NCBI GenBank assembly: GCA_963831345.1
Contig: CAWHPZ010000039.1
Span: forward strand, 33,118-97,117
DNA length: 64,000 nucleotides
Direction of reading: 5' to 3'
Source: an uncultured Alphaproteobacteria bacterium
GTDB taxonomy: Bacteria; Pseudomonadota; Alphaproteobacteria; Rhizobiales; Hyphomicrobiaceae
Positions 18,173 to 59,289 of the stretch are shown here, piece by piece (the stretch's first letter is position 1; every line of letters starts with the position of its first letter). The notes beneath the pieces were generated by a model that was not told the DNA's origin, ran no database searches, and was given only the letters and a program-made list of their open reading frames with translations. The translations under genes and the position numbers were made by a program.

Positions 18173-18835
18173 ATGGTGATCATGCGCGCCCGGAGTCCGC
18201 TCCGTCGTTTGTTGGTCGTCGGCGTCATGTCGATGATGCTGGGGGCGTGCGCGCACGATCAGATCGAATTCCTGGCGGCGGGCGGCCGAGAGCCTGTCGT
18301 CGTTGCTCCTGCGGATGCAGGCTGGAACGGCCCGGTGGTGCAGGCCGCCTATGATGCCGGTCCCGCGGACCTCAATGGCCCTTACGTTCTCGACACCGGC
18401 GACCGGCTGCGCGTGTTCGTCTATGGCCAGCCCAACCTTTCGCGCGCCTATACCGTGGATCAGGACGGGCGCATCTCCGTGCCTCTCATCGGCAACGTGG
18501 AAGCGCGCGGGCGCACCACCGACGATCTCGAGCATGCCATCCGTGGCCGCCTCGGGGCCGAGTTCGTGCGCGATCCGCAGGTCACGGTGGATGTGCTGCA
18601 GAACCGGCCATTCTTCATCCTCGGCGAAGTGAAAGCCGCGGGGCAATATCCGTACGTGTCGGGGATGACGGTGGAGACGGCGGTGGCCATAGCGGGCGGC
18701 TACTCCGACCGCGCCAGCGACCGCCAGTTCCGCGTCACGCGCCGCAGGAACGGCTACATCGAGCAACTTGAAGCTCCGAGCGAATATCTGATCCAGCCGG
18801 GCGATACCGTCTATGTCTATGAACGCTTTTTCTAG
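18173..18835 (+). CDS. Polysaccharide export protein, Wza family (UppC-like)
   Basis: Lipobox LGAC, YVLDTGDRLRV, ISVPLIG, RPFFILGEV, AVAIAGGY. Confidence 0.92.
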   Translation: MVIMRARSPLRRLLVVGVMSMMLGACAHDQIEFLAAGGREPVVVAPADAGWNGPVVQAAYDAGPADLNGPYVLDTGDRLRVFVYGQPNLSRAYTVDQDGRISVPLIGNVEARGRTTDDLEHAIRGRLGAEFVRDPQVTVDVLQNRPFFILGEVKAAGQYPYVSGMTVETAVAIAGGYSDRASDRQFRVTRRRNGYIEQLEAPSEYLIQPGDTVYVYERFF

Positions 18836-18875
18836 TTCGGCAGCGAATGCCGCAGCCGTCCATGCCGACTACAGC

Positions 18876-20072
18876 ATGGACGCGATGGACGAGGCCGTGC
18901 CCGCCTCATCGCGGCCGCTGCGGATCCTGCACATCATGCGCGCGCCCGTGGGCGGTCTGTTCCGGCACGTGCTGGATCTCGCCGGCGAGCAAGCGCGGCG
19001 CGGCCATGCCGTCGGCATCGTGGCGGACGCAAGCACGGCCGATGGCCTCACTCTTTTGCGGCTGCGCGGCATAGAGTCGAAGCTCAGGCTCGGAATTCAG
19101 CTCATTCCCATGAGCCGGCAGCCGGGGTTCGGCGATCTGTCGGTGAGCCGTTCCGTATATCGCCTCTCCAGGGCTCTCAAGGCCGACATCCTGCACGGTC
19201 ATGGCGCGAAGGGCGGCGCTTATGCGCGTCTGGCAGCCATGCCGATTTCGGTACGGGTAGACAACATAAAGGCCTTCTATACGCCGCATGGCGGCAGCCT
19301 TCACTTCAAGCCCGGCACGTTCGGGGGCGGGGCCATTCTCGGCCTCGAGAAACTGCTCGGCCGAATGACGGACGGCCTCATTTTCGAGAGCGACTTCGCC
19401 CGCCGGCTCTATACGGAGCGCATCGGCGTGGGCTCCATTCCGGTGCGCGTCATTCCCAACGGCTTGAACCCTGCCGACTTCACGCCGCATGAACCGCTGC
19501 CGAACGCCGCGGATTTTCTGTTCATCGGCGAATTGCGTGACATCAAGGGTGTCGACGTTCTGCTCAAGGCGCTCTCGAAGCTCAACGTGTATCAGCCGGT
19601 CACGGCCGTCATCGTCGGCGCGGGCCCCGATGCGGAGCGTCTCCAGGCGCTGGCGACGCACCTGCGGCTCGGATCGCGCGTGCGCTTTCCGGGAGCCATG
19701 CCGGCACGCGAGGCGCTCCCGCTCGGACGCTGCCTCGTGGTTCCCTCGCTTGCGGAGAGCTTTCCCTACGTCGTGCTCGAGGCCGGGGCGGCGGGCATGC
19801 CGCTCGTTGCGACCAATGTGGGCGGAATTCCCGAGATCGTCGCCGGAACGCACATCCGTCTCATCCCGCCGGGTGACGTCGCCGCGCTGACGGCCACGAT
19901 GCACCGCGTGCGCGAGAAGCCGGAACGGGCCTTGCTCGACGCCAAGGAACTGCGCTCTGCCGTCCAGCGCAAATACACCGTCGAGGCGATGACGGACGAG
20001 GTGCTCGCCTTCTATGCGGCGCCGTCCACTGTGGTGGCGCCTCCGCGACCGGAAGCGGTCGCGGAAGGTTAA
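18876..20072 (+). CDS. Glycosyltransferase family 4 (UppD-like)
   Basis: RAPVGGLFRHV, HGHGAKGG, YTPHGGSLH, ESFPYVVLE. Confidence 0.9.
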   Translation: MDAMDEAVPASSRPLRILHIMRAPVGGLFRHVLDLAGEQARRGHAVGIVADASTADGLTLLRLRGIESKLRLGIQLIPMSRQPGFGDLSVSRSVYRLSRALKADILHGHGAKGGAYARLAAMPISVRVDNIKAFYTPHGGSLHFKPGTFGGGAILGLEKLLGRMTDGLIFESDFARRLYTERIGVGSIPVRVIPNGLNPADFTPHEPLPNAADFLFIGELRDIKGVDVLLKALSKLNVYQPVTAVIVGAGPDAERLQALATHLRLGSRVRFPGAMPAREALPLGRCLVVPSLAESFPYVVLEAGAAGMPLVATNVGGIPEIVAGTHIRLIPPGDVAALTATMHRVREKPERALLDAKELRSAVQRKYTVEAMTDEVLAFYAAPSTVVAPPRPEAVAEG

Positions 20073-21855: not shown

Positions 21856-22027
21856 TACGCCCGGTGCCCTCGAGTAGATCACGGGCTGCGACAATCGCAC
21901 GCTCCGTCACGCACCGGACGCACTGGGCAGAAACAAACTCGGCCCGGTTCAGATGCTGAAGCACTGTACCAGGGCCGGGTGTGAACTCAATTTACCGAAG
22001 AGTATAGCGGCGGGATTTACCGGCGTG

Positions 22028-22507
22028 TCAGGCTGCCGCGTGCGCGCCCGGAGCAAAGCTCTCACCGGCCGTCTCGAGCGCCTCGCTTACAGCGCGTGCG
22101 AGCTTGTGCGGGTTAAAGCCCCACTTGACGTTGAGGCGCATGCCGGCTGCGATCTCGAGTGTCTTCACCACAGCCTCCTGACCATGGCTTGCTATGAGCT
22201 CGCTGATACGACGCGACTGGCAAGCTTCCATGAGGCTGCGGAAGCGCAACAGAACGGCGACCTTGCGTTGACGGCCGCGGCGCGAGATCTGCCAGAAGGC
22301 CTGTTCGACGCGGCGGAGATCTTCATCCGAAAGAGAGACCGAGGGGAGCAGCAAGCCGCGTCCCGAGAGCATCTTGAGAGCGAGAGCAAGCTCACGCGCA
22401 CCTACGCGCGGAACATCGCTGGTATCGAGTGCGGCCAGGGTGTCGCTGCGATCCGCAGCCTCAGAGCCGTTCGATGAAACTGGTGTCGCTGAAGACATCG
22501 TGGCCAT
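22028..22507 (-). CDS. Hypothetical protein
   Basis: 159-aa ORF with GGAG RBS, 5 nt after the cold-shock-like gene. Confidence 0.7.
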   Translation of the reverse strand: MATMSSATPVSSNGSEAADRSDTLAALDTSDVPRVGARELALALKMLSGRGLLLPSVSLSDEDLRRVEQAFWQISRRGRQRKVAVLLRFRSLMEACQSRRISELIASHGQEAVVKTLEIAAGMRLNVKWGFNPHKLARAVSEALETAGESFAPGAHAAA

Positions 22508-22512
22508 GGCAA

Positions 22513-22746
22513 TCAGCTCCGCTTACCAAATGTTTTTTTGTGGGCGAAAGCGCCCCAAGGAGATCCATGCAACAAGACAATGTCTCTCGGCTTACGTGAT
22601 TCGATCAGGAAGTCCACGTCGAGTCCGACCAGCTTTCCATTCGGATTGCATATCTCAGACGCCGAGAAGCGGAATTTCTGTCCGTCTTCGCTACGGATAA
22701 CGCCGAAGCCGATATCGTCGCGAAACTTGGTGATATGTCCCTGCAT
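22513..22746 (-). CDS. Divergent cold-shock-domain (OB-fold) protein
   Basis: MQGHITKFRDDIGFGVIRSEDGQKFRFSASEI resembles the CSD RNP1/RNP2 pattern; GGAGA RBS. Confidence 0.7.
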   Translation of the reverse strand: MQGHITKFRDDIGFGVIRSEDGQKFRFSASEICNPNGKLVGLDVDFLIESRKPRDIVLLHGSPWGAFAHKKTFGKRS

Positions 22747-22817
22747 GTCGTTCTCCAACTCATGTGGACCTCGTCTGGCCCGTTGAGTGGAGCTTCCCAC
22801 GACACGCTTGTTTGCTC

Positions 22818-22833
22818 AGTTCCCCAAGTCACA
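22818..22833 (-). promoter_or_regulatory. Crp/Clr-like box, copy 1
   Basis: TGTGAC-TTGG-GGAACT, then 21 nt, then GAAGCT (22796-22791). Confidence 0.55.
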
Positions 22834-22902
22834 TTGAACGAAATTTCGCTCCCGCCGTCCAGCGGTCATGCGCATGGTAAACAAGGGTCAAACAAAATTA
22901 AC

Positions 22903-22934
22903 AGGGGCCGTGTCTCTCGCGAGACCCAGCCCCT
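22903..22934 (-). terminator. Hairpin after the periplasmic adaptor gene
   Basis: AGGGGC..GTCTC-TCGC-GAGAC..GCCCCT stem with T-rich sequence downstream on the minus strand. Confidence 0.55.
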
Positions 22935-23010
22935 ATTGATTTAGTTAGACAGTGATGGCGGCAAAGCCAGGGCAAGAACGCCCGTTTTCCGTCGAGGTGG
23001 ACGATCTGTC

Positions 23011-24045
23011 TCAGTCTTTACGAAAAAAGGCGTCTACCCGCATCCCCGGCAAAAGCGGCGACGTCCCTTCCAGATCGATCGTGACTTCCATGACCTCGAC
23101 GTCATTGGCGCGGCGCGGACCGCGCGGGTTGATCTTCGCCTGTCCCAGCGTGGGAGCGAGACGCGTGACCTTGCCTTCGAAATCCTTGCCGGGATGGCCA
23201 ATAGAACGGATGAAGGCCTTCTGACCGAGCTTGATCTTGGCCACGTCAACGTCGTCGACCTCGGCCTTGACGCGAACCACGCTCATGTCACCCATGACGA
23301 CCAGGGGCTGCTCGGGCGAGGGCGCGACGACCTCGCCCTGCTTGGCATTGAGCTCGAGGACTGTGCCAGGCGACGGGGCACGGATGCGGGTCTTGTCGAG
23401 GAGCGCCTCGGCCATGCGCACTTCGGCGCGTGCGGCGCTGACGGCGGACTCGGCGCGGCTCGGCGCCGGCAGGTTGGGCTTGGTCTGCGCCTTGACGAAG
23501 GCGACGCGCTCGCGCTCCAGGCGGTCGTTGGCTTCCTTCAAGCGGCGGCGCGCTTCGGCAACGGAAGACTCCGCTGCCGCTGCCGCGTGCGCTTCGCTGC
23601 CAGATGCATAGTCGAGCTCGATGCGTGCACCCGTGACGGCGCGCTCCGCGGAATAGATGGCGTCCTCGGCCTTTCGCACGTCCTCGCGGCCGGAAGCGAA
23701 AGCCTTCTCGCGATCTTCGCGAAGCGCTTCGGCCTCGGTCTCGGCAGACGCCAGCTTGGCGCGGGCTTCGGAGTCGTCGAGGCGGATGAGCAGCTCGCCC
23801 TCCTCGACCTTGTCCTCGACGCTGACGAGAACCTCCCCGACGCGACCGAGTAGGCTCGTGCCGAGATGGATCTCGCCGGACTTCGGCTCGACCCTGCCCG
23901 GCGCGGCAGCGACCCAGTCGATGACTTCGACGGGAGCCGCCGGCTCCTCGGTGTAGGCCTTGCCGACGTTGTATTTATCGAAGGCGACATAGCCGACAGC
24001 GCCGGCCACGGCCAATAATGTGATGAGGTTCGTCCGGGAAAACAT
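23011..24045 (-). CDS. Efflux periplasmic adaptor (HlyD/MacA/DevB-like)
   Basis: N-terminal TM, AAPGRVEP, lipoyl halves, coiled hairpin, IRAPSPGTV, PGMRVDA. Confidence 0.9.
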   Translation of the reverse strand: MFSRTNLITLLAVAGAVGYVAFDKYNVGKAYTEEPAAPVEVIDWVAAAPGRVEPKSGEIHLGTSLLGRVGEVLVSVEDKVEEGELLIRLDDSEARAKLASAETEAEALREDREKAFASGREDVRKAEDAIYSAERAVTGARIELDYASGSEAHAAAAAESSVAEARRRLKEANDRLERERVAFVKAQTKPNLPAPSRAESAVSAARAEVRMAEALLDKTRIRAPSPGTVLELNAKQGEVVAPSPEQPLVVMGDMSVVRVKAEVDDVDVAKIKLGQKAFIRSIGHPGKDFEGKVTRLAPTLGQAKINPRGPRRANDVEVMEVTIDLEGTSPLLPGMRVDAFFRKD

Positions 24046-24059
24046 GGCGCGTCTGGTCC

Positions 24060-24860
24060 TTAGGCTACGGCTGTGCTGGATGAATTGGGTTTGGCAGCGG
24101 GGGTTCCGTGTGGCTCGTGGCCGCTGGTCCAGCCCCTGGCTATGCTGCCGTTGGGCCGTTCGTCGGCGACGATCAGTCCGTCCTCGATGCGAATGATGCG
24201 GTCGGCATAACCGAGCGTGCGGTGGTCATGGGTCACGGCGAGCACGGCACGAGAGGGATCTTGCGCGACCTCGGCGAGAAGCTCCATCACGGCCTTGCCG
24301 TTCTCGCTGTCGAGAGCGGCCGTCGGCTCGTCGGCGAGAATGACCGAGGGCCTGCCGGCGAGCGAGCGCGCAATGGCGACACGCTGCTTCTCGCCGCCCG
24401 AGAGCTTCGAGGGATAAGTGTGCATGCGATGACTGAGGCCGACCGCCCGCAGGGCTTCTGCCGCCGTCTCGGTGGGGTCGGATGACCTCGCATCGCGGAC
24501 ATCGAGTGCGACGAGCACGTTCTCGAGCGCGGTCAGCGTCGGGAACAGATTGTAGCTCTGGAATACGAAGCCGACGTGCTGGCGGCGGATATCGGCAAGG
24601 CCTTCGGCCGAAAGGCCGACGGCCTGGTTGCCGGCAAGATTGAGCTTGCCGCTGGTGGCAGTCAGGATGCAGCCGAGGATGGAAAGCAGCGTGGTCTTGC
24701 CGCTGCCCGAGGGGCCCATCAACAGCGTGAGCTCGCCGGGGCGGAGGTCCATGCTGACGCCCTTCAGGATGCGCAGGATGCCTGCGCCCGTACCGATGGA
24801 CTTCACGATATTAGTCGCCTCGATAACAGGTGGCGCGGGCGACTTGGCCGGTGCGGTCAT
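24060..24860 (-). CDS. ABC transporter ATPase (MacB/LolD/DevA-like)
   Basis: GPSGSGKTT, GFVFQSYNL, LSGGEKQRVAIAR, ILADEPT, VTHD. Confidence 0.95.
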   Translation of the reverse strand: MTAPAKSPAPPVIEATNIVKSIGTGAGILRILKGVSMDLRPGELTLLMGPSGSGKTTLLSILGCILTATSGKLNLAGNQAVGLSAEGLADIRRQHVGFVFQSYNLFPTLTALENVLVALDVRDARSSDPTETAAEALRAVGLSHRMHTYPSKLSGGEKQRVAIARSLAGRPSVILADEPTAALDSENGKAVMELLAEVAQDPSRAVLAVTHDHRTLGYADRIIRIEDGLIVADERPNGSIARGWTSGHEPHGTPAAKPNSSSTAVA

Positions 24861-24931
24861 TGGTAAGATCTCCCTTAGTGCGTGCAAATTAGCAGATGCT
24901 GCGGAGAATGGATCATTTCGAGTTCGAGCGC

Positions 24932-24947
24932 TGTTCCGCGTGACACA
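24932..24947 (-). promoter_or_regulatory. Crp/Clr-like box, copy 2
   Basis: TGTGTC-ACGC-GGAACA, then 21 nt, then CATTCT (24910-24905). Confidence 0.7.
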
Positions 24948-25140
24948 TCAGGCTCATTTTTGTTGGATGCGGGGAAGTTTCCTGAAGCACAAAAAGCGCT
25001 GCGGCGGCCGCTTCAAGTTGACGCTGGAATGGCTGGAAGCTCCCGCGTTTTTTCTCGTCATCCTTACTTCCTCGAGATGCGCGAAGCGCATCATGATTTG
25101 ATCGACGTCTACCGCGTCAGGTATTCGGCTAAACTGCCGA

Positions 25141-25170
25141 GGCCCGGAGGCGGGTGAACCGCTCCGGGCC
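25141..25170 (-). terminator. Strong hairpin after the ABC permease
   Basis: GGCCCGGAG-GCGG-GTGAA-CCGC-TCCGGGCC. Confidence 0.55.
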
Positions 25171-25197
25171 TTACGGCTTTCAGACTCTCGACGGTCC

Positions 25198-26405
25198 CTA
25201 CCGGTTAAAGACGCCCGCAGGGTCAATTCTTGTCACCTTGAAGATGGCCGTTATGGCGGCGAAAACGCACATCCCAACCGTCAAAGCAAACAAATAGGCG
25301 GCCAGCTTCGGCGTCATCAGGATCGTCAGCGTCGCGCTCTTCGACGCCAAGCCGTAGATCACGAACAGCGCCAACGCCATGCCGAGGATGTAGCCGATCA
25401 CGGCGCTCAACAGCGCCTGGATCAGGATGACGGCGTGGATGTAGCTCGCCGAGGCACCGAGGGCGCGCAGCGTCGCGAACTCGTTCAAGTGATCCTTGGT
25501 GCTGGCGTAGAGCGTCTGCGCCACGATGACGACGCCGACGATGATGCCGAGGGCGGCACCCATGATGAGCGCAGCGCCGGCACCCGTGTTGAACATCCAG
25601 TAGTTGAGGCTGCGAGCGCGGAACTCTTCGTGCGTCAGAACTTCCGTGTCGGGGAGCCGCTCAATAAGGCTTGCGCGCACGGACTCGAGGTCGGCGCCGG
25701 GGGCTACAGTAACCAGCTCGTAGGTCGCCTGCTCGGGGCCTGCGCTGAGTCAACTGTCGTGCACGCGAGATCGGCATGAACACATAGGGCAGCGTCGTGA
25801 ACGAGCGGATGGCCGATGTCACCGCCGTGACGTGCACGCGCTGGCCGTTGATCTCGGCGTTGGCGCCGATGCCTTCAATGCCGAGATCCTTGAAGTAGGA
25901 TTTGTCGACGGCCACGGCAGCGGGAGCCGAGAGATCGGCGACCGTGCCTTCGACAAGGTTCCAGGGCAAGGTTCCGCCATTCAAATAGTCGAGGCCCACG
26001 AGTACGAAGGCCTTCTTTCCGCCCTCCGGGTTTGCGCCAGGACGAGAAGCTCACGACCATGTCCTCGACGCGCTGAACGCCCGGCGTCGACAGCGCCGCA
26101 TACTTCTCACGGCCCGTCATCAGCGACGGATCGTCGAAGCTCTTGGTGCCGATGGGGACGATCCACAGGTCGGCCTTGGCCTTGTCGAGCACGGTCGCGA
26201 TCTTGCTTTCGGAGCCGAGGTAGAGGCCGCACTGGATGGCGACGAGCACGACCGAGAACACGATGCCGATCAGCGTGACGAACAAGCTCATGCGATCATG
26301 GAAAAGATTCCGGTAGGCGATCTTGGGCGCCATCTTGATCTTCTTAACCGGACCGCCCTGGGCCGCCACGGCCGCGGGAATATTCACACTTTTCATGGCC
26401 GTCAT
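25198..26405 (-). CDS. ABC permease, MacB/FtsX (DevC-like) family; frameshifts near 26030 and 25750
   Basis: IAYRNLFHDR, TLIGIVFSVVLV, periplasmic domain, QTLYAST..EFATLRALGA, RIDPAGVF. Confidence 0.9.
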
Positions 26406-26499
26406 TTCCGTCTCCAAACCGCACATCTCTTTGTGCGCCGAACTCCCAGTGCCGTCCAGCGAATCACCCGCGTGCGGCACTACGCTTCGAATATCGATA

Positions 26500-27104
26500 T
26501 TAATCGCCGCAAGAAACCGAGACCGTGATGCCGATCGCGGGAATGAACTTCTTGCAGTTAAGCTTTTTGTCGGACGAAGCGGTCTTCACTTCATCCTTCT
26601 TGGGCTCGTCCTTCGTCTCGTCCTTCTGGGCTTCGACCGGCGCAGTATCAGCCGAGGTTGACGTTTCGGTGACCTTGGCCGGCTCGTCCGTCTTCGTCGG
26701 CTCGATTGCTGCCGTCTGGGTCGTCTGGCTCGCGGCAGTAGCCTGGTTGGCCGTGTCGATCAGGGCGGTGCTGCCGCTCGAGGACGTGGTGCTGGTCGAA
26801 GCCGAGGTCGTCGTCGACGCGGTTTCCTTAGATTTCTTGCTCGCTGAAGACGTCTTGGAAGGGGCGGCCTCCTCGGCCTTGGCGACACGCGCTGCCTTCT
26901 TGGCGGCGGCAGCCTGACGGCCTGCGGCCTTGCGTGCGTAGACGTCGCCATAATCAGCGCCGCCTCCACGAGAGGGGGTCGCTGTGAAATTGCCAAGCGG
27001 CAAACCGAAGTTGAGGCGCACGCCGCCGCCGGCGTCGGCGGCAGTCGCAGAGAACGTCACGGCCGCTGCGATCACTGTCGCGATGGCGATAATTTCGGGG
27101 TCAT
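26500..27104 (-). CDS. Secreted low-complexity protein A with C-terminal Cys motif; frameshift in an A run just after the start
   Basis: GGAGAG RBS; restored MTPKIIAIATVIAAAVTFSATAADA signal peptide; S/T/A/K/E-rich linker; ends CKKFIPAIGITVSVSCGD. Confidence 0.8.
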
Positions 27105-27211
27105 TGGAGCTCTCCGATTTCTGTTCCGCCTGAAGGCGGTTTTCAATCCACTGTTCGAGGACGATCTTCCTCGGTTCATGGCGGAGATTGCCGAAGTTCG
27201 CCCTTCAACGC

Positions 27212-27227
27212 TGTTCCGGGTGGGACA
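27212..27227 (-). promoter_or_regulatory. Crp/Clr-like box, copy 3
   Basis: TGTCCC-ACCC-GGAACA, then 21 nt, then CAATCT (27190-27185). Confidence 0.75.
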
Positions 27228-27273
27228 AAGAAAAATTATTCGAACGGCTTTGCGCGGAAGATCGAGCGCCCGC

Positions 27274-27307
27274 AAAAGAAAACGCCGGGCTCTGACGGAG
27301 CCCGGCG
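27274..27307 (-). terminator. Rho-independent terminator after secreted protein B
   Basis: CGCCGGGCTC/GAGCCCGGCG stem followed by TTTTCTTTT on the minus strand. Confidence 0.85.
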
Positions 27308-27338
27308 CACATTCGAGGATGAGAACTTTCGTTGGAGA

Positions 27339-27951
27339 TCAGCAGCCGACCGTGACTGCAACTCCGAGAGCCGGAACATATTTCTTGCATGTCGCCGGGG
27401 CGGGCTCTTCGGCCTTAACCTCGGCCTTTTCGGCCAAGGGTAGCAGTGGACGTCGGAACTTCGGCAGTTGCGACAGTATCGGTCGCGGTTTCGGTCTTTG
27501 CCGGCTCGGTTGTGTCGCGGCGGTCGAACTTGCCGGAGATGTCGGCCTGAGTCAGGGCTGCCGTGCTCGAGGGTGCAGCGACATAGGTGCTTTCGCCCTT
27601 CTTCGCGGTGTCGTTGTCGGCGGTCTCGTCTGCGTTCTGCTCGGAGGGGTTCTCAGCTTTCTCGGCCTTGGCGGCGGCAGCCTTCTGAGCTGCGATTTCC
27701 TGCTGGCGGCGAGCGGCGGCGACTGCCTTCGCCTTGGCGCGGGCTTGAGCCTGAGCTTCGGCACGTGCACGGGCGCGGGCCCGGGCTTCCTCAGCCTTTT
27801 GCGCCTGCTGGGCCTGGTGAGCCATGACGCCAACGGCCAGAACGCCGAGGCCAATTCCAAGTCCGCGGTTACCTGCCTGAGCGGCGGGCGTAATTGCCAT
27901 GCTGGCTGCGACCGTGGCGGCGATCAAAGTGATGCTGAGCTTCGAGGCCAT
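27339..27951 (-). CDS. Secreted low-complexity protein B with C-terminal Cys motif; frameshift near 27438
   Basis: Signal peptide ending AAQA; Ala/Gln/Lys helix and T/E linker; shifted frame gives AEKAEVKAEEPAPATCKKYVPALGVAVTVGC* just before the terminator. Confidence 0.8.
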
Positions 27952-28050
27952 TTTCGTCTCCATCCTCAAAAACAAGTTCTCAAACCGTTGAGCCTGGGCT
28001 GCGCCCCGACTTGCTTGAGAAGAAGAATGCCAGAATGCCCCTCATCCGCC

Positions 28051-28066
28051 TGTTCCTGCTGGAACA
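28051..28066 (-). promoter_or_regulatory. Crp/Clr-like box, copy 4 (perfect palindromic arms)
   Basis: TGTTCC-AGCA-GGAACA, then 21 nt, then CATTCT (28029-28024). Confidence 0.8.
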
Positions 28067-28214
28067 AGGCGCAGAAAATCGAGCGGACGAGGAAAATTCT
28101 CGTCCGCCCGCCAGTCCGCGCGCGGCAATGCGATATGATGTAAGTATCTGTAATTGCTAGACATAACCGCGCTCCGGCATGGGCTGTGGTGTGTCCATTA
28201 CTTATGCGGCCTGC

Positions 28215-29078
28215 TCATGCGGAGGCCACACGCGGAAATCTAGCATAAGCCTCGGCATTCCGCACACCTGCATTCAGCACACTGGAGATCATGCCGATGA
28301 AGGAGGACGTGCGGTCGAGAACGATGTGGCGCTGCCGATCGACCGTAACCATGTGATAGCAGTCATCGAGGACCACGAGGTCGACCGGCCCCGCGAGCTT
28401 GTTCTGCAGGTAGTTGGCGTTGTCGAGACCGGCATAGTCGTCCTCGCGCGCATGCATGATGAGAACCGGCTGACGGATGCTGCCGAGCAAGCCCATGACA
28501 ACCCGCGCCAAGCGGTGACGCTCGAGAACGGCGCCGCCCGGGGTCTTGATCTGGGTCGGAGCGCCCTGCCCCACCTTGGTGGCATTGCGGACGAACTCGC
28601 GGATGCGCTGATCCTTAATGCCGACGTGCATCGGCACCGGGAACTTGAACATGTTGGCGATGGCTTTGCTGTTGATGCAGCGGAACAGCGGCACATACCA
28701 GGGAACCTTGCGGCCGCTCAGCCACAACGTGGGCGAGTAGAGCGTCACGCCATCAATCTTCTCGGGATGCTTGGCTGCGAGCATCAGGCTCAGCACGGCG
28801 CCGGTGGAAAGGCCGCCGATGATGACCCGGTCACATGTGGCGCGGAGCTCGAACAGGGCCTCCTCGGCGCTGCGATACCAGTCCTGCCAGGTGGAGGCCT
28901 GAAGATCGGCCTCGCTGCCGCCGTGACCGGCCAGTTGCGGGCACAGTACGGTCATGCCCTCGCGGGCCAGCCCGTTGGCGACATAGCGGATCTCTGCAGG
29001 CGAACCGCACAGTCCGTGGATCAAAAGCACGCCCGTGCGTCCGCCTTTGATACGATAGCTCGCGTCGTTCACCCTCAT
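28215..29078 (-). CDS. Alpha/beta-hydrolase carboxylesterase (YvaK/Est30-like)
   Basis: LLIHGL, LAGHG, nucleophile GLSTG, AREDD, YHMVTVD. Confidence 0.88.
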   Translation of the reverse strand: MRVNDASYRIKGGRTGVLLIHGLCGSPAEIRYVANGLAREGMTVLCPQLAGHGGSEADLQASTWQDWYRSAEEALFELRATCDRVIIGGLSTGAVLSLMLAAKHPEKIDGVTLYSPTLWLSGRKVPWYVPLFRCINSKAIANMFKFPVPMHVGIKDQRIREFVRNATKVGQGAPTQIKTPGGAVLERHRLARVVMGLLGSIRQPVLIMHAREDDYAGLDNANYLQNKLAGPVDLVVLDDCYHMVTVDRQRHIVLDRTSSFIGMISSVLNAGVRNAEAYARFPRVASA

Positions 29079-29139
29079 GACACATCCCTGCTTGCCGAAA
29101 TCCATGCGGCCGAAGGTAGGTCAGCAAGAAAAGTGCCGC

Positions 29140-29155
29140 TGTTCCTGCAGTTACA
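29140..29155 (-). promoter_or_regulatory. Crp/Clr-like box, copy 5
   Basis: TGTAAC-TGCA-GGAACA, then 21 nt, then TACCTT (29118-29113). Confidence 0.7.
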
Positions 29156-29261
29156 TGGGCGGGATATTCGCCGCGAAGTGCGCGCGAAGGCGCGGATGTG
29201 CTGCCGGCCTAGGGTGGGACAGGGTTGGACGTAAACCTTATTGCCCGGTGCGCGGAGCTAG

Positions 29262-29358
29262 TTTAGAGTTAATCTAAGGTAACTTTTTCTAGCGACTTTT
29301 GTGCGGGTCAACGGCCCGGTGCGCAGTGCCCTAGTAGCTACCTTAGAATTATTCTGAA
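29262..29358 (+). promoter_or_regulatory. Two Irr-binding ICE-like boxes upstream of bfr
   Basis: TTTAGAG-TTA-ATCTAAG (29262-29278) and CTTAGAA-TTA-TTCTGAA (29342-29358) versus TTTAGAA-N3-TTCTAAA. Confidence 0.65.
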
Positions 29359-29416
29359 TGAGGCTGAATTTCTGGAGCGTGCCCGAGTTGCCGCTCCACG
29401 CTTGAAGGGGACTGAA

Positions 29417-57881: not shown

Positions 57882-59289
57882 ATGAATTGTCGCAGGGCCG
57901 CCATCGCTGAAGCCGGCTTCTATTTTCTTAGCTGTAGCGGTCGCAATTGCGGCGGTCCCGCTCGGCTCGGTCGATGCTGCAAGTGCCGGCGTTCTCGGCC
58001 TTTTGCTTTCGTTCTCTCTCATCTCGTCGCTGCTGGCCTCGCCGCCCACACCGGCGGCGTCTCGGATCATCGGAGTGACTGCTCTGCTCTGCGCAGGGCT
58101 CGTTGCGTGGACCATATTGCAGGTGATCCCGAATGCTGCGCACTTGTCCGTGGATCGCTTTTGGGCGGCGGCATCAGAGCTTACCGGCAGCACCTCCGCG
58201 CCCTTGGCGTCGGCGCGCTACCAGCCGCTGGCCTCGATCGGATACGTCATGCTGCCGCTCGCGACTTTTATCGCGGCCCTGGCGAACATTCGCGATACGC
58301 GCGGCTTCACCCGCTCGGCCGACATCATCCTCGGCATCAGCGGGGCGGTGAGCGCGGCCGCGCTCCTTCAGTATTGGGCTTATCCGGGCCGGCTCCTGTT
58401 CGAGGAGAAACACCACTATCTCGACTTTTTCACGGGAACTTTCGTCAATCCGAACACGGCCGCGACCTATTTCGGTGTACTCACACTGCTCTCGCTCGCA
58501 CTCATGTCTCGCCCGTGGAGCGTTCTCCGGCCGATGGCTTTTCTGCGCTCGAACCGCCGCTGGCTGCCCGACGACAGCAGACAGGCTGCCGCTCTCGCTT
58601 TCTATGCCGGCCTTGCCTTCATCTTCGCGCTCGCGCTGTTTCTCACGCGATCCAGAGCCGGCGTGCTCGCCTCTCTCGCAGCCCTTGCTGCTCTCGCCGC
58701 GGGGCAGGCGTACTTGTCGTTGCGGCGCAAATACTCCACGACGACGGCTCTCAGCGGCAGCCTGCTCGCGATCGGCGCGGTCGGCGGCCTCTTTGCAATC
58801 TTCGGCTCGCGTCTCCTGCTCCGCATCGAGACCGAAGGTCTTGTCGACGAGCAGCGGCTCTGCACCTACAGATCCACCTGGCAGGCGATCAGGGAGCACC
58901 TTCCGTGGGGAACGGGAGCAGGAACCTTCCAGGACGTGTTTCCGGCCTACCGAGCCGACGCGTGCGGCATCGAAGGGTACTGGGAGATGGCTCACAGCGT
59001 GCCACTCGAAGGCCTACTCACCTTTGGCGGCGCATTTCTGGCGGCGACCCTCATCGCCTATGTGACGCTCATCGCAATCTACGCGAAGGGGTTGAGAGAG
59101 CGGCGGCGCTACCGATATGCCCCTCTCGCCTGCCTTTCGATTTTGCTTCTCATCACACTGCACTCGACCGTCGATTTTTCGTTGCAGATCCCAGCCGTGG
59201 CGCTGCTCGTGGCATGGGCTCTCGGGGCTGGAGCCGCCATCTCCGTGGGGCGTTCGAAAGAAGCAAGCTTGGCGCCATCCGCCGGCTAA
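57882..59289 (+). CDS. O-antigen ligase (WaaL/O-OTase-like) family protein; frameshift near 57930
   Basis: GTFVNPNTAA, TRSRAG, GTGAGTF, AHS, LHSTVDFSLQIP. Confidence 0.88.

What the first reader, a model, noticed from the sequence alone, without database searches (positions are those of the whole stretch)
22791..29155. Five promoters with identical architecture define a hidden Crp/Clr-type regulon
Seen: five minus-strand units are each preceded by TGTnnC-N4-GGAAC(A/T), then exactly 21 nt, then an nAnnnT hexamer. They are TGTAACtgcaGGAACA/TACCTT (esterase), TGTTCCagcaGGAACA/CATTCT (secreted protein B), TGTCCCacccGGAACA/CAATCT (protein A plus permease), TGTGTCacgcGGAACA/CATTCT (ATPase plus adaptor) and TGTGACttggGGAACT/GAAGCT (cold-shock pair). 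I did not find this arrangement elsewhere in the window by eye. Known: a 16-bp TGT-N10-ACA site centred near -41.5 is class II Crp-family geometry, and the site resembles the box of the cAMP/cGMP-dependent regulator Clr of Sinorhizobium meliloti. Inference: genes that annotate as unrelated form one cyclic-nucleotide-switched module.
Basis: partly seen in the sequence, partly recalled or inferred. Interest (0 to 1): 0.85.

Follow-up and report, generated by a model that had tools for sequence, protein, structure and literature searches.

The report
Clr-type cAMP regulon promoters in Hyphomicrobium
Five neighbouring gene units in a soil Hyphomicrobium each carry the same conserved docking site for a cyclic-nucleotide-sensing regulator like Sinorhizobium Clr, so a secretion-related gene cluster is probably switched on together by cAMP; this extends a known kind of regulon to a new group of bacteria rather than revealing a new mechanism.

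Summary
Five minus-strand boxes TGTnnC-N4-GGAAC(A/T) each lie exactly 21 nt upstream of an nAnnnT hexamer, with 0.08 matches expected by chance in the window.

- **Genome-wide:** the genome has 36 such sites, 30 of them in non-coding DNA.
- **Conserved:** in 20 related Hyphomicrobium genomes the box, the 21-nt spacing and the A and T of the hexamer are kept upstream of the orthologs, while the sequence between has diverged.
- **Known motif:** the box fits the published Clr binding site of Sinorhizobium meliloti.
- **Candidate regulator:** one Clr-like protein, encoded outside the window, matches the Clr crystal structure at E 8.5e-49. It keeps all five DNA-reading side chains and sits directly upstream of a MASE7 adenylate-cyclase gene.
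- **Co-occurrence:** across 81 family genomes, motif enrichment tracks presence of this regulator.

Best reading: five class II, cAMP/Clr-type activated promoters drive an α/β-hydrolase, two secreted Cys-tail paralogs, a DevCAB/MacB-like exporter and a pair of small proteins.

Caveats: there are no TSS or expression data. The two nucleobase-contacting threonines of Clr are Ala/Asp here, so the ligand is unproven. The "cold-shock" label is weak.

This scan has noted Clr-type boxes before secreted-protein genes in other genomes. This is a new member of a known kind, of moderate interest.

The parts
29140..29155 (-). Clr-type box 1 (TGTAACTGCAGGAACA) upstream of the α/β-hydrolase. The -10-like hexamer TACCTT lies at 29113-29118.
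   Evidence: The box is conserved in 15 of 17 orthologous loci, with a TAnnnT hexamer at +21 in 15 of 17.
28215..29105 (-). α/β-hydrolase ('esterase'), unit 1. The likely true start is the second ATG, near 29066.
   Evidence: Pfam Hydrolase_4 / Abhydrolase_1, E 1e-18 to 3e-19. The start codon is my inference from the sequence.
28080..28110 (-). Terminator-like hairpin closing unit 1, just upstream of box 2.
   Evidence: 12-pair stem followed by a T-tract.
28051..28066 (-). Clr-type box 2, the perfect palindrome TGTTCCAGCAGGAACA. The -10-like hexamer CATTCT lies at 28024-28029.
   Evidence: Conserved in 16 of 17 orthologs (17 of 17 with the relaxed pattern); CAnnnT at +21 in 17 of 17.
27339..27951 (-). 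Secreted protein B. It has a signal-peptide-like N-terminus. Its C-terminal tail ...CKKYVPALGVAVTVGC is encoded in another frame after a frameshift near 27420.
   Evidence: No Pfam family.
27282..27308 (-). Terminator-like hairpin closing unit 2.
   Evidence: 11-pair stem, then TTTCTTTT.
27212..27227 (-). Clr-type box 3 (TGTCCCACCCGGAACA). The -10-like hexamer CAATCT lies at 27185-27190.
   Evidence: Conserved in 15 of 18 orthologs (16 of 18 relaxed); hexamer at +21 in 15 of 18.
26500..27103 (-). Secreted protein A, a paralog of B by its tail ...CKKFIPAIGITVSVSCGD. The ATG at 27103 is out of frame because of an apparent homopolymer indel.
   Evidence: No Pfam family.
25198..26480 (-). DevC/MacB-type FtsX permease, split into three ORF pieces by single-base frame breaks.
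   Evidence: Pfam FtsX E 1e-13 and a weak MacB_PCD hit. NCBIfam DevC E 6.5e-31, below its cut-off. Related contigs differ by 1 nt at 25744/25746 and 26022.
24932..24947 (-). Clr-type box 4 (TGTGTCACGCGGAACA). The -10-like hexamer CATTCT lies at 24905-24910.
   Evidence: Present in 12 of 21 orthologous loci, with the hexamer at +21 in 8 of 21. This is the least conserved of the five.
24060..24860 (-). ABC ATPase, DevA/LolD/MacB-like.
   Evidence: Pfam ABC_tran E 2e-33. NCBIfam DevA E 8e-69, below its cut-off.
23011..24045 (-). HlyD/DevB-type periplasmic adaptor.
   Evidence: Pfam HlyD_D23 and HlyD_3. NCBIfam DevB E 3e-27, below its cut-off. Orthologs at 70-84% identity in 24 of 24 genus genomes.
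22818..22833 (-). Clr-type box 5 (TGTGACTTGGGGAACT), the weakest of the five in this genome. The -10-like hexamer GAAGCT lies at 22791-22796.
   Evidence: The orthologous sites are mostly GGAACAGC with CAnnnT at +21: box in 15 of 18, hexamer in 14 of 18.
22028..22746 (-). Unit 5: a 77-aa protein with a weak CSD-like N-terminus (22513-22746) and a 159-aa protein of no known family (22028-22507).
   Evidence: CSD E 0.033, below the cut-off; no other family. Conserved in the genus at 56-77% identity.

Best explanation
The five boxes are binding sites for a dimeric Crp-family activator of the Clr type (cluster G). The regulator is most likely the single Clr-like protein encoded elsewhere in this Hyphomicrobium genome, at G000 contig C30:551655-552395. 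A MASE7-domain class III adenylate cyclase gene follows it on the same strand.

Proposed mechanism: when the cyclase raises cAMP, the regulator binds each 16-bp box. Each box spans about -49 to -34, centred at -41.5, exactly 21 nt from a minimal -10 element (C/T)AnnnT. These promoters have no -35 element, so the bound regulator recruits RNA polymerase by the class II mechanism.

The result is co-induction of five otherwise separate units: an α/β-hydrolase; secreted protein B; secreted protein A with a DevC-type permease; a DevA-type ATPase with a DevB/HlyD adaptor; and a pair of small proteins. The cluster is the densest part of a genome-wide regulon of about 30 sites.

Shown here: the sites exist and are statistically enriched; they are conserved together with their spacing; the regulator exists and keeps Clr's DNA-reading residues; a cyclase is adjacent; motif and regulator co-occur across genomes.

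Inferred: actual binding, activation rather than repression, the TSS positions, and cAMP as the ligand.
For: 1. Sites and spacing. Enrichment: 36 distinct genome sites, 30 in non-coding DNA, against control patterns averaging 11 sites with 4 non-coding.

2. Phylogenetic footprint in 20 same-genus genomes. The box is kept upstream of the hydrolase in 15/17, protein B in 16/17 (17/17 with the relaxed pattern), protein A in 15/18 (16/18 relaxed), the ATPase in 12/21 and the small-protein unit in 15/18. Over 75 aligned promoters, information content is confined to TGT..C....GGAACAGC and to hexamer position 2 (A, 73/75) and position 6 (T, 70/75). The spacer is unconserved.

3. Outside the cluster, 10 of 30 non-coding occurrences have nAnnnT at offset 21 or 22, against a background of 3.7% per offset.

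4. No canonical σ70 promoter with a -35 is present in 21900-29400, and no -35 shows in the conservation profile.

5. The box fits the published Clr site, core GTNNC-N4-GNNAC (PMC10127613; PMC5498481).

6. The C30 protein hits Clr structure 7PZA at E 8.5e-49. Two other paralogs tried scored 1.2e-13 to Clr or not at all. Q184, S194, R195, K197 and N199 of Clr are all identical, and the helix is invariant in 10 genus orthologs. None of the other 13 Crp/Fnr paralogs has this helix.

7. The next gene is MASE7 + Guanylate_cyc (E 4e-52). Its best structural relatives are mycobacterial adenylate cyclases (E 2e-53). The Lys/Asp ATP-specifying pair is present; I identified these residues from the alignment together with my own knowledge of class III cyclases.

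8. Phyletic pattern across 81 family genomes: motif hits have a median of 18 against 7 for the control pattern when the regulator is present (63 genomes), and 6 against 8.5 when it was not found (18 genomes). Motif excess correlates with identity to this regulator, Spearman rho 0.66. Outside the family the motif is at background level.
Against: - There is no transcript-start or expression evidence. The public RNA runs gave nothing usable.
- Clr's two nucleobase-contacting threonines, T140 and T141, are Ala and Asp here, invariantly in the genus. Ligand identity, and even ligand dependence, is therefore unproven.
- Three genus genomes (G012, G019, G003) have the motif but no close ortholog was found with this query. 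For G012 the expected position lies just past a contig end; G003 is rearranged.
- Thirteen family genomes have a homolog at 42-61% identity but no clear motif excess.
- Three of the five left half-sites deviate from the published 'Y' at position 4 (A, G, G).
- Box 4 is missing in 9 of 21 relatives, and box 5 in this genome is weak.
- Related genomes are not independent, so the p-values overstate the support.
Confidence: 0.75

Rival explanations
1. The boxes are real Crp/Fnr-family sites, but a different paralog binds them. The genome encodes about 13 others. Alternatively, the Clr-like protein binds them in response to a signal other than cAMP, such as cGMP, another nucleotide, or none.
For: About 14 HTH_Crp_2 proteins are encoded. 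The hinge residues differ from Clr (A/D in place of T/T). Three genus genomes have the motif with no ortholog found. Clr itself responds to both cAMP and cGMP (PMC10127613).
Against: Only one paralog carries Clr's readout residues S-R-P-K-V-N plus Q184. Motif excess tracks this protein across 81 genomes. The adjacent cyclase has adenylate-cyclase-type specificity residues. The gap in G012 coincides with a contig end.
Confidence: 0.15
2. The regulator binds the boxes but acts as a repressor or roadblock at these positions rather than as a class II activator.
For: The box overlaps the -35 region, a position from which Crp/Fnr proteins can also repress. No expression data exist.
Against: There is no -35 element for an activator-independent promoter. 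The exact 21-nt spacing to the -10 is preserved across about 60 diverged promoters, as expected for face-of-helix-dependent class II activation. In S. meliloti the promoters directly targeted by Clr are activated (PMC10127613). The G47/D48 contact to RNA polymerase is kept as G62/D63.
Confidence: 0.06
3. GGAAC is the -35 element of an ECF sigma factor promoter (EcfG/RpoE type, GGAAC-N16-17-CGTT), not half of a Crp-type palindrome.
For: GGAAC is the known -35 core of alphaproteobacterial EcfG-type promoters (my own knowledge). Regulon members are partly envelope or stress-like proteins.
Against: The conserved downstream element starts 22 nt after GGAAC, not 16-17, and nothing is conserved where an ECF -10 would lie. 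The upstream TGTnnC half is as conserved as GGAACA, and many sites are perfect 16-bp palindromes. An ECF promoter explains neither feature.
Confidence: 0.03
4. The similarity reflects chance or recent duplication of a promoter cassette, with no shared regulator.
For: Three of the five sites share the extension GGAACAGCG, and two share CATTCT followed by CCGC.
Against: Flanks and spacers are unrelated between the five promoters, and only the box and the -10 A/T are conserved. About 25 further sites lie at unrelated loci. The chance expectation is 0.08 per window.
Confidence: 0.01

Closest known systems
Sinorhizobium meliloti Clr (SMc02175) and its regulon / Clr binding site (CBS)
   Same: - Same regulator type, a cluster-G Crp. 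It is about 50% identical over 193 residues, and all five DNA-reading side chains are identical.
- Same 16-bp site, core GTNNC-N4-GNNAC with a GRWACA half.
- A class III cyclase gene lies beside the regulator gene, as with clr-cyaD1.
- Targets are mostly hypothetical proteins, many with signal peptides, and include a TPR protein.
   Different: - The host is a free-living soil Hyphomicrobium, not a legume symbiont.
- The neighbouring cyclase has a MASE7 sensor domain, not CHASE2.
- The hinge residues that touch the nucleobase are A/D, not T/T.
- The targets include a five-promoter island with a DevCAB/MacB-like exporter, two Cys-tail secreted paralogs and a hydrolase. None of these is listed among the S. 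meliloti Clr targets read here.
- Spacing here is strictly class II, whereas S. meliloti CBS-TSS distances range from -42 to -76.
E. coli CRP (CAP) class II promoters (for example galP1)
   Same: A 16-bp TGT-N10-ACA core ends 21 nt before the -10 hexamer, which centres it at -41.5. The -35 element is missing or poor. The activator is a cNMP-binding dimer.
   Different: - The half-site is TGTnnC/GGAACA, not TGTGA/TCACA.
- The recognition helix is SRPKVN, not RETVGR.
- The protein is only distantly related to CAP (E about 2e-9).
- There is no link to catabolite repression.
Cyanobacterial DevBCA / E. coli MacAB-type tripartite ABC exporters (the regulated cargo, not the regulatory device)
   Same: An ATPase, an FtsX-type permease and a HlyD-type adaptor are encoded together. 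The best NCBIfam hits are DevA, DevB and DevC.
   Different: - All three hits fall below the curated cut-offs.
- The gene order is permease, ATPase, adaptor, split over two promoters.
- The substrate is unknown.
- Control by a Clr-type box has not, to my knowledge, been described for such exporters.

Membership tests
Clr / cluster-G Crp regulators (candidate regulator G000 C30:551655-552395) | N-terminal cNMP-binding domain plus C-terminal Crp-type HTH | tested here: met
   PF00027 at E 1.4e-20 and PF13545 at E 1.7e-11 in the same 246-aa ORF.
Clr / cluster-G Crp regulators (candidate regulator G000 C30:551655-552395) | Closest solved relative is Clr, clearly ahead of main-cluster CRPs | tested here: met
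   7PZA/7PZB at E 8.5e-49; the next best hit (M. tuberculosis Crp) is at 1e-27. 7PZA is confirmed as Clr in PMC10127613.
Clr / cluster-G Crp regulators (candidate regulator G000 C30:551655-552395) | DNA-reading residues Q184, S194, R195, K197, N199 | tested here: met
   All five are identical in the alignment. The residue list comes from PMC10127613. They are invariant in 10 genus orthologs.
Clr / cluster-G Crp regulators (candidate regulator G000 C30:551655-552395) | cNMP pocket: G85, E86, R95, S96 (phosphate and ribose contacts) and T140, T141 (nucleobase contacts) | tested here: not met
   G, E and R are kept and S96 is T. T140 is A and T141 is D, invariantly in the genus. The phosphate and ribose contacts are met; the nucleobase contacts are not.
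Clr / cluster-G Crp regulators (candidate regulator G000 C30:551655-552395) | cAMP/cGMP-dependent binding to the CBS and activation of transcription | not testable with these tools
   Needs EMSA, ITC or reporter assays.
Clr binding site (CBS) | Core GTNNC-N4-GNNAC; full consensus HGTYHCNNNNGRWAC(A/W) | tested here: met
   All five sites match the core and the right half GRWAC(A/W). The left-half 'Y' is A, G and G in boxes 1, 4 and 5, so only 2 of 5 match the full consensus.
Clr binding site (CBS) | Over-represented in intergenic DNA of a genome that encodes the regulator | tested here: met
   30 of 36 sites are non-coding, against 4 of 11 for control patterns. Enrichment tracks the regulator across 81 genomes.
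Class II Crp-dependent promoter | Activator site centred near -41.5, meaning the 16-bp core ends 21 nt before the -10 hexamer | tested here: met
   Exactly 21 nt in all five promoters and in most orthologs; -11A in 73/75 and -7T in 70/75. The TSS itself is not mapped.
Class II Crp-dependent promoter | No functional -35 element; transcription depends on the activator | tested here: inconclusive
   No -35 is conserved and there are no canonical σ70 matches. Dependence on the activator is untested.
ECF sigma (EcfG-type) promoter | GGAAC -35, then 16-17 nt, then a CGTT-like -10 | tested here: not met
   The conserved downstream element starts 22 nt after GGAAC. Nothing is conserved at 16-17 nt. 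The upstream TGTnnC half is conserved.
Cold-shock protein (CSD) for unit 5 | Pfam CSD above the gathering score | tested here: not met
   E 0.033 and 14.5 bits against a cut-off of 27. The second protein has no hit.
DevBCA-type ABC exporter | DevA, DevB and DevC models above their NCBIfam cut-offs | tested here: inconclusive
   These are the best hits for all three proteins (231.6, 96 and 107.6 bits), but all fall below the cut-offs (295.8, 129 and 290.35). The permease was scored only as a fragment.

The most novel reading that the evidence does not exclude
The Hyphomicrobiaceae Clr-like regulator, whose nucleobase-contacting hinge is invariantly Ala-Asp where Clr has Thr-Thr, may sense a ligand other than cAMP, or sense it in a new way. 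The five-promoter island would then be a dedicated second-messenger-gated secretion pathway: a DevCAB/MacB-type exporter and a hydrolase induced together with their own Sec-exported Cys-tail substrates. That would be a signal-controlled two-step secretion system not described so far.
Probability: 0.15. Interest if true: 0.7.

Novelty: new member of a known kind. Interest (0 to 1): 0.5.

Why it matters
The Clr regulon has been characterised experimentally only in Sinorhizobium meliloti, where most targets are proteins of unknown function and the system is discussed in terms of symbiosis.

Here the same regulator type, the same DNA site and an adjacent cyclase operate in free-living soil Hyphomicrobiaceae. 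The regulator was found in 38 of 51 genera sampled, which argues that Clr-type signalling is an old, general envelope and secretion programme rather than a symbiosis speciality.

The five-promoter island gives a compact, conserved and easily testable model. It also ties a set of unannotated proteins to one signal: two Cys-tail secreted paralogs, a DevCAB/MacB-like exporter, a hydrolase and a pair of small proteins. That link is a useful functional lead for all of them.

Tried and rejected
- **PWM from the five window sites.** It overfitted the spacer and ranked coding hits highly, so I dropped it in favour of the strict pattern with control patterns and a PWM trained only on relatives.
- **Public RNA data.** Two metatranscriptome or RNA-labelled contig sets held only fragments at 90-99% identity. 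The two poly-A raw-read runs laid 0 and 3 reads. There is no information on starts, strands or levels, so the predicted TSSs remain untested.
- **Autoregulation of the Clr-like gene.** A core-only palindrome, GTTACCCCGGTAAC, lies about 70 nt upstream in G000 but is not present in G001. I did not pursue it.
- **Clr boxes near the EPS (exo-like) genes of the window.** Only a half-match at 58397-58412, and no PWM hit.
- **G010 as a natural knockout.** It shows no motif excess, no Clr-like hit and a cluster lacking the hydrolase, A, B and the small protein. This is suggestive, but its contig ends before the expected regulator position, so loss of the regulator is not shown.
- **Supplements of PMC10127613.** I searched them for similar target functions and found no occurrences.
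- **Literature search** for Hyphomicrobium + cAMP + Crp found no relevant study.
- **ECF-sigma reading** of GGAAC, rejected on spacing and symmetry.

Full report
**The observation**

Reading the minus strand of 22400-29400 shows the five sites exactly as reported. In each, TGTnnC-N4-GGAAC(A/T) is followed by exactly 21 nt and then an nAnnnT hexamer:
- TGTAACTGCAGGAACA / TACCTT
- TGTTCCAGCAGGAACA / CATTCT
- TGTCCCACCCGGAACA / CAATCT
- TGTGTCACGCGGAACA / CATTCT
- TGTGACTTGGGGAACT / GAAGCT

The pattern TGTNNCNNNNGGAACW occurs nowhere else in the 64-kb window. Shuffles give 0.08 matches on average and never 6.

**What lies downstream**

- Unit 1 is an α/β-hydrolase (Pfam Hydrolase_4 / Abhydrolase_1).
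- Units 2 and 3 start with two proteins of no Pfam family. Both have signal-peptide-like N-termini and share a C-terminal CKK(F/Y)xPAxGxxVxVxC tail.
- Unit 3 continues into an FtsX/MacB-type permease.
- Unit 4 is an ABC ATPase plus a HlyD-type adaptor.
- Unit 5 is a 77-aa protein and a 159-aa protein.

The transporter's best NCBIfam hits are DevA, DevB and DevC, all below the curated cut-offs. The 'cold-shock' label rests on a CSD hit at E 0.033, below the cut-off.

Strong terminator-like hairpins close units 1 and 2, immediately before boxes 2 and 3. The region contains no canonical σ70 promoter with a -35.

Several genes are broken by single-base frame shifts: the tail of protein B, the start of protein A (AAA where AAAA is needed) and the permease at two places. 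Related metagenome contigs differ by one base exactly at the permease breaks. The genome scores only 74% complete in 42 contigs. I therefore read these breaks as assembly or strain indels, not as evidence of decay.

**A genome-wide motif**

In the whole 4.36-Mb genome the strict pattern has 36 distinct sites; palindromes match on both strands, giving 42 matches in all. By a crude GC3-based coding mask, 30 of the 36 lie in non-coding DNA, where 34% would be expected (p about 2e-9). Forty control patterns with shuffled half-sites average 11 sites, 4 of them non-coding.

The consensus is the palindrome TGTTCC-N4-GGAACA, often followed by G. Outside the cluster, 10 of 30 non-coding occurrences carry nAnnnT at offset 21 or 22, against a background of 3.7% per offset. 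Class II geometry therefore recurs but is not universal.

Downstream genes elsewhere include a TPR protein, DUF2147, DUF3829, DUF1963, an MBL-fold hydrolase, two P450s, a YkuD transpeptidase, CorA and many small proteins of no family. The five-site island is the densest part of a regulon of roughly 30 sites.

**Conservation**

The adaptor has orthologs at 70-84% identity in all 24 sampled genomes of the genus. I fetched 17 kb around 20 of them. The gene cluster is syntenic, and the box sits upstream of the same genes:

| Unit | Box present | nAnnnT hexamer at +21 |
|---|---|---|
| Hydrolase | 15/17 | 15/17 |
| Protein B | 16/17 (17/17 with the relaxed pattern) | 17/17 |
| Protein A | 15/18 (16/18 relaxed) | 15/18 |
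| ATPase | 12/21 | 8/21 |
| Small-protein unit | 15/18 | 14/18 |

A box-anchored profile of 75 non-identical promoters shows information only at two places. One is TGT..C....GGAACAGC. The other is the hexamer: position 1 is C or T, position 2 is A in 73/75 and position 6 is T in 70/75. The 21-nt spacer and the flanks are essentially random.

The A and T are the two key bases of a σ70-type -10 element (-11A and -7T). With the hexamer at -12 to -7, the box spans -49 to -34 and is centred at -41.5. The -35 position reads CAGCGn, which is no -35 element. This is the textbook class II arrangement; that comparison rests on my own knowledge of E. coli CRP. It falls at the close end of the CBS-TSS distances of -42 to -76 reported for Clr-activated promoters (PMC10127613).

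**Which regulator**

The published Clr site is HGTYHCNNNNGRWAC(A/W), with core GTNNC-N4-GNNAC (PMC10127613; PMC5498481). All five boxes match the core and the right half. Three deviate at the 'Y' of the left half.

The genome encodes about 14 Crp/Fnr-type proteins. One of them, at C30:551655-552395 (246 aa), hits the Clr-cAMP-DNA structure 7PZA at E 8.5e-49. Its next-best hit is M. tuberculosis Crp at 1e-27. Two other paralogs I tried scored 1.2e-13 to Clr or did not list it.

In the alignment, all five Clr side chains that read the bases (Q184, S194, R195, K197, N199; PMC10127613) are identical. The whole helix region is invariant in ten genus orthologs. No other paralog has this helix. The RNA polymerase contact G47/D48 is kept as G62/D63.

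In the ligand pocket, G85, E86 and R95 are kept and S96 is T. The two threonines that contact the nucleobase, T140 and T141, are Ala and Asp, invariantly in the genus. The effector therefore cannot simply be read across from Clr.

**The cyclase next door**

The gene immediately downstream of the regulator, on the same strand, encodes a MASE7 membrane domain plus a class III cyclase domain (Pfam E 4e-52 on the intact G001 copy; frameshifted in this assembly). Its closest solved relatives are the mycobacterial Cya/Rv1625c adenylate cyclases (E 2e-53). In the alignment it keeps the Lys of IKTIGD and the Asp of YDIWGD, the pair that specifies ATP in class III cyclases; I identified these residues from my own knowledge. 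This predicts cAMP and mirrors the clr-cyaD1 neighbourhood of S. meliloti.

**Co-occurrence of regulator and motif**

Within the genus, 21 of 24 genomes have an ortholog: 19 at 73-81% identity, one split by a frameshift (G021) and one degraded copy at about 52% with internal stops (G006). Motif counts in the genus are 18-47 per genome against 1-14 for a reversed-pattern control. In 16 genomes from other families of the order, the motif is at control level and no homolog above 35% identity was found.

In a wider draw of 81 genomes from the family, the regulator was found in 63 genomes and 38 of 51 genera. Motif hits have a median of 18 against 7 for the control when it is present, and 6 against 8.5 when it was not found. 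Motif excess rises with identity to this regulator (Spearman rho 0.66). Related genomes are not independent, so this is descriptive support and not a formal test.

There are exceptions. G012, G019 and G003 have the motif but no close ortholog was found with this query. In G012, synteny with G001 runs to the contig end just short of the expected position. G010 shows no motif excess and no regulator hit, and its cluster lacks the hydrolase, A, B and the small protein. Its contig also ends early, so loss of the regulator there is not proven.

**Rival explanations**

- *ECF-sigma promoter.* An EcfG-type promoter with GGAAC as its -35 is excluded. The conserved downstream element starts 22 nt after GGAAC rather than 16-17. 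Nothing is conserved where an ECF -10 would lie. The TGTnnC half and the perfect palindromes would be unexplained.
- *Promoter duplication or chance.* This is excluded by the unrelated spacers and by the roughly 25 sites at other loci.
- *Another paralog or another ligand.* This remains possible, at about 0.15.
- *Repression rather than activation.* This is unlikely given the missing -35 and the rigid spacing, but it is untested.

**Organism, habitat and prior knowledge**

The closest orthologs of the regulator all come from Hyphomicrobium MAGs. Near-identical DNA occurs mainly in soil and rhizosphere metagenomes. No usable RNA evidence exists. I found no paper on cAMP/Crp regulation in Hyphomicrobium.

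This scan has already noted Clr-type boxes before secreted-protein genes, or next to cyclases, in several other genomes. Nothing was noted on look-alike DNA of this stretch.

**Verdict**

This is a Clr-type regulon, most probably cAMP-dependent, with a conserved island of five class II promoters in Hyphomicrobium. It is a new member of a known kind. The solid comparative evidence and the compact architecture make it a good experimental model. Binding, activation, TSS positions and the ligand all remain to be shown.

Noticed in passing
window 25198-27951, and G000 C30:552583-553827: There are many single-base frame breaks: the protein A start (AAA where AAAA is needed), the protein B tail, the permease at two places, and the MASE7 cyclase. 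Related contigs differ by 1 nt at 25744/25746 and 26022. Together with the 74% completeness score, this suggests an indel-rich (long-read?) assembly rather than pseudogenes.
   Followed up: partly
G000 C30:553954-557000 (locus L091:10955-13816): A paralogous DevCAB-like system (adaptor 46% identical to the window's) lies directly beside the Clr-like regulator and cyclase genes. No Clr box was seen upstream of it.
   Followed up: partly
L091 compared with L090 (G001 C4:89000-109000): Relative to G001, G012 and G010, this genome lacks a roughly 12.5-kb segment between the paralogous exporter and the cyclase. That segment holds an AcrB-type RND pump with its adaptor, an EPSP-synthase-family gene and histidinol dehydrogenase. 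This is either a deletion or relocation, or a misassembly.
   Followed up: no
L090:8005-8020 (G001): A Clr-type box, TGTTTCCAAGGGAACA, lies at the head of the RND efflux operon in G001. The same 16-mer recurs in G020 and G018. In other Hyphomicrobium genomes the regulon may therefore include an RND pump.
   Followed up: no
L051, L052, L053 (G003, G023, G016): In three relatives a 4-5.5 kb insertion separates the permease from the ATPase gene, yet the ATPase keeps its own Clr box. This fits units 3 and 4 being independent promoters.
   Followed up: no
L063 (G010 C43): One genus member keeps the exporter genes but has no detectable hydrolase, protein A, protein B or small CSD-like protein there. 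It has no genome-wide motif excess (4 hits against 6 for the control) and no Clr-like hit. This may be loss of the whole circuit, but the regulator's expected position lies past a contig end.
   Followed up: partly
G012 C1:200494-200907 and G003 C20:160551-160931: In two relatives a 630-683-aa ORF with a cNMP-binding domain lies immediately downstream of the cluster. The window has a different neighbourhood there, with a glycosyltransferase at 18813-20072.
   Followed up: no
G000 C36:40818-41640 (L111:2380-3123): An MBL-fold hydrolase with a Clr box 63 nt upstream has a weak hit to the Apyc1 cyclic-nucleotide phosphodiesterase family (E 1.5e-4, below the cut-off). It is a candidate feedback phosphodiesterase.
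   Followed up: no
G000 C14:613 and C14:3717: The site TGTGCCGGACGGAACT occurs twice with identical flanks in inverted orientation, 3 kb apart. These are probably two copies of a repeat or mobile element rather than regulon promoters.
   Followed up: no
window 58397-58412 and the exo-like EPS locus at 35000-62000: There is a half-match, TGTTTCTCCTCGAACA, inside the succinoglycan-like EPS locus. In S. meliloti, Clr/cAMP raises exo gene expression indirectly (PMC5498481). No good box was found before the EPS genes here.
   Followed up: partly
window 29103-29118: With the predicted TSS near 29106, the first ATG of the hydrolase ORF (29105) would be leaderless. A second ATG near 29066, with a GGGA-type ribosome-binding site, is the more likely start.
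   Followed up: no
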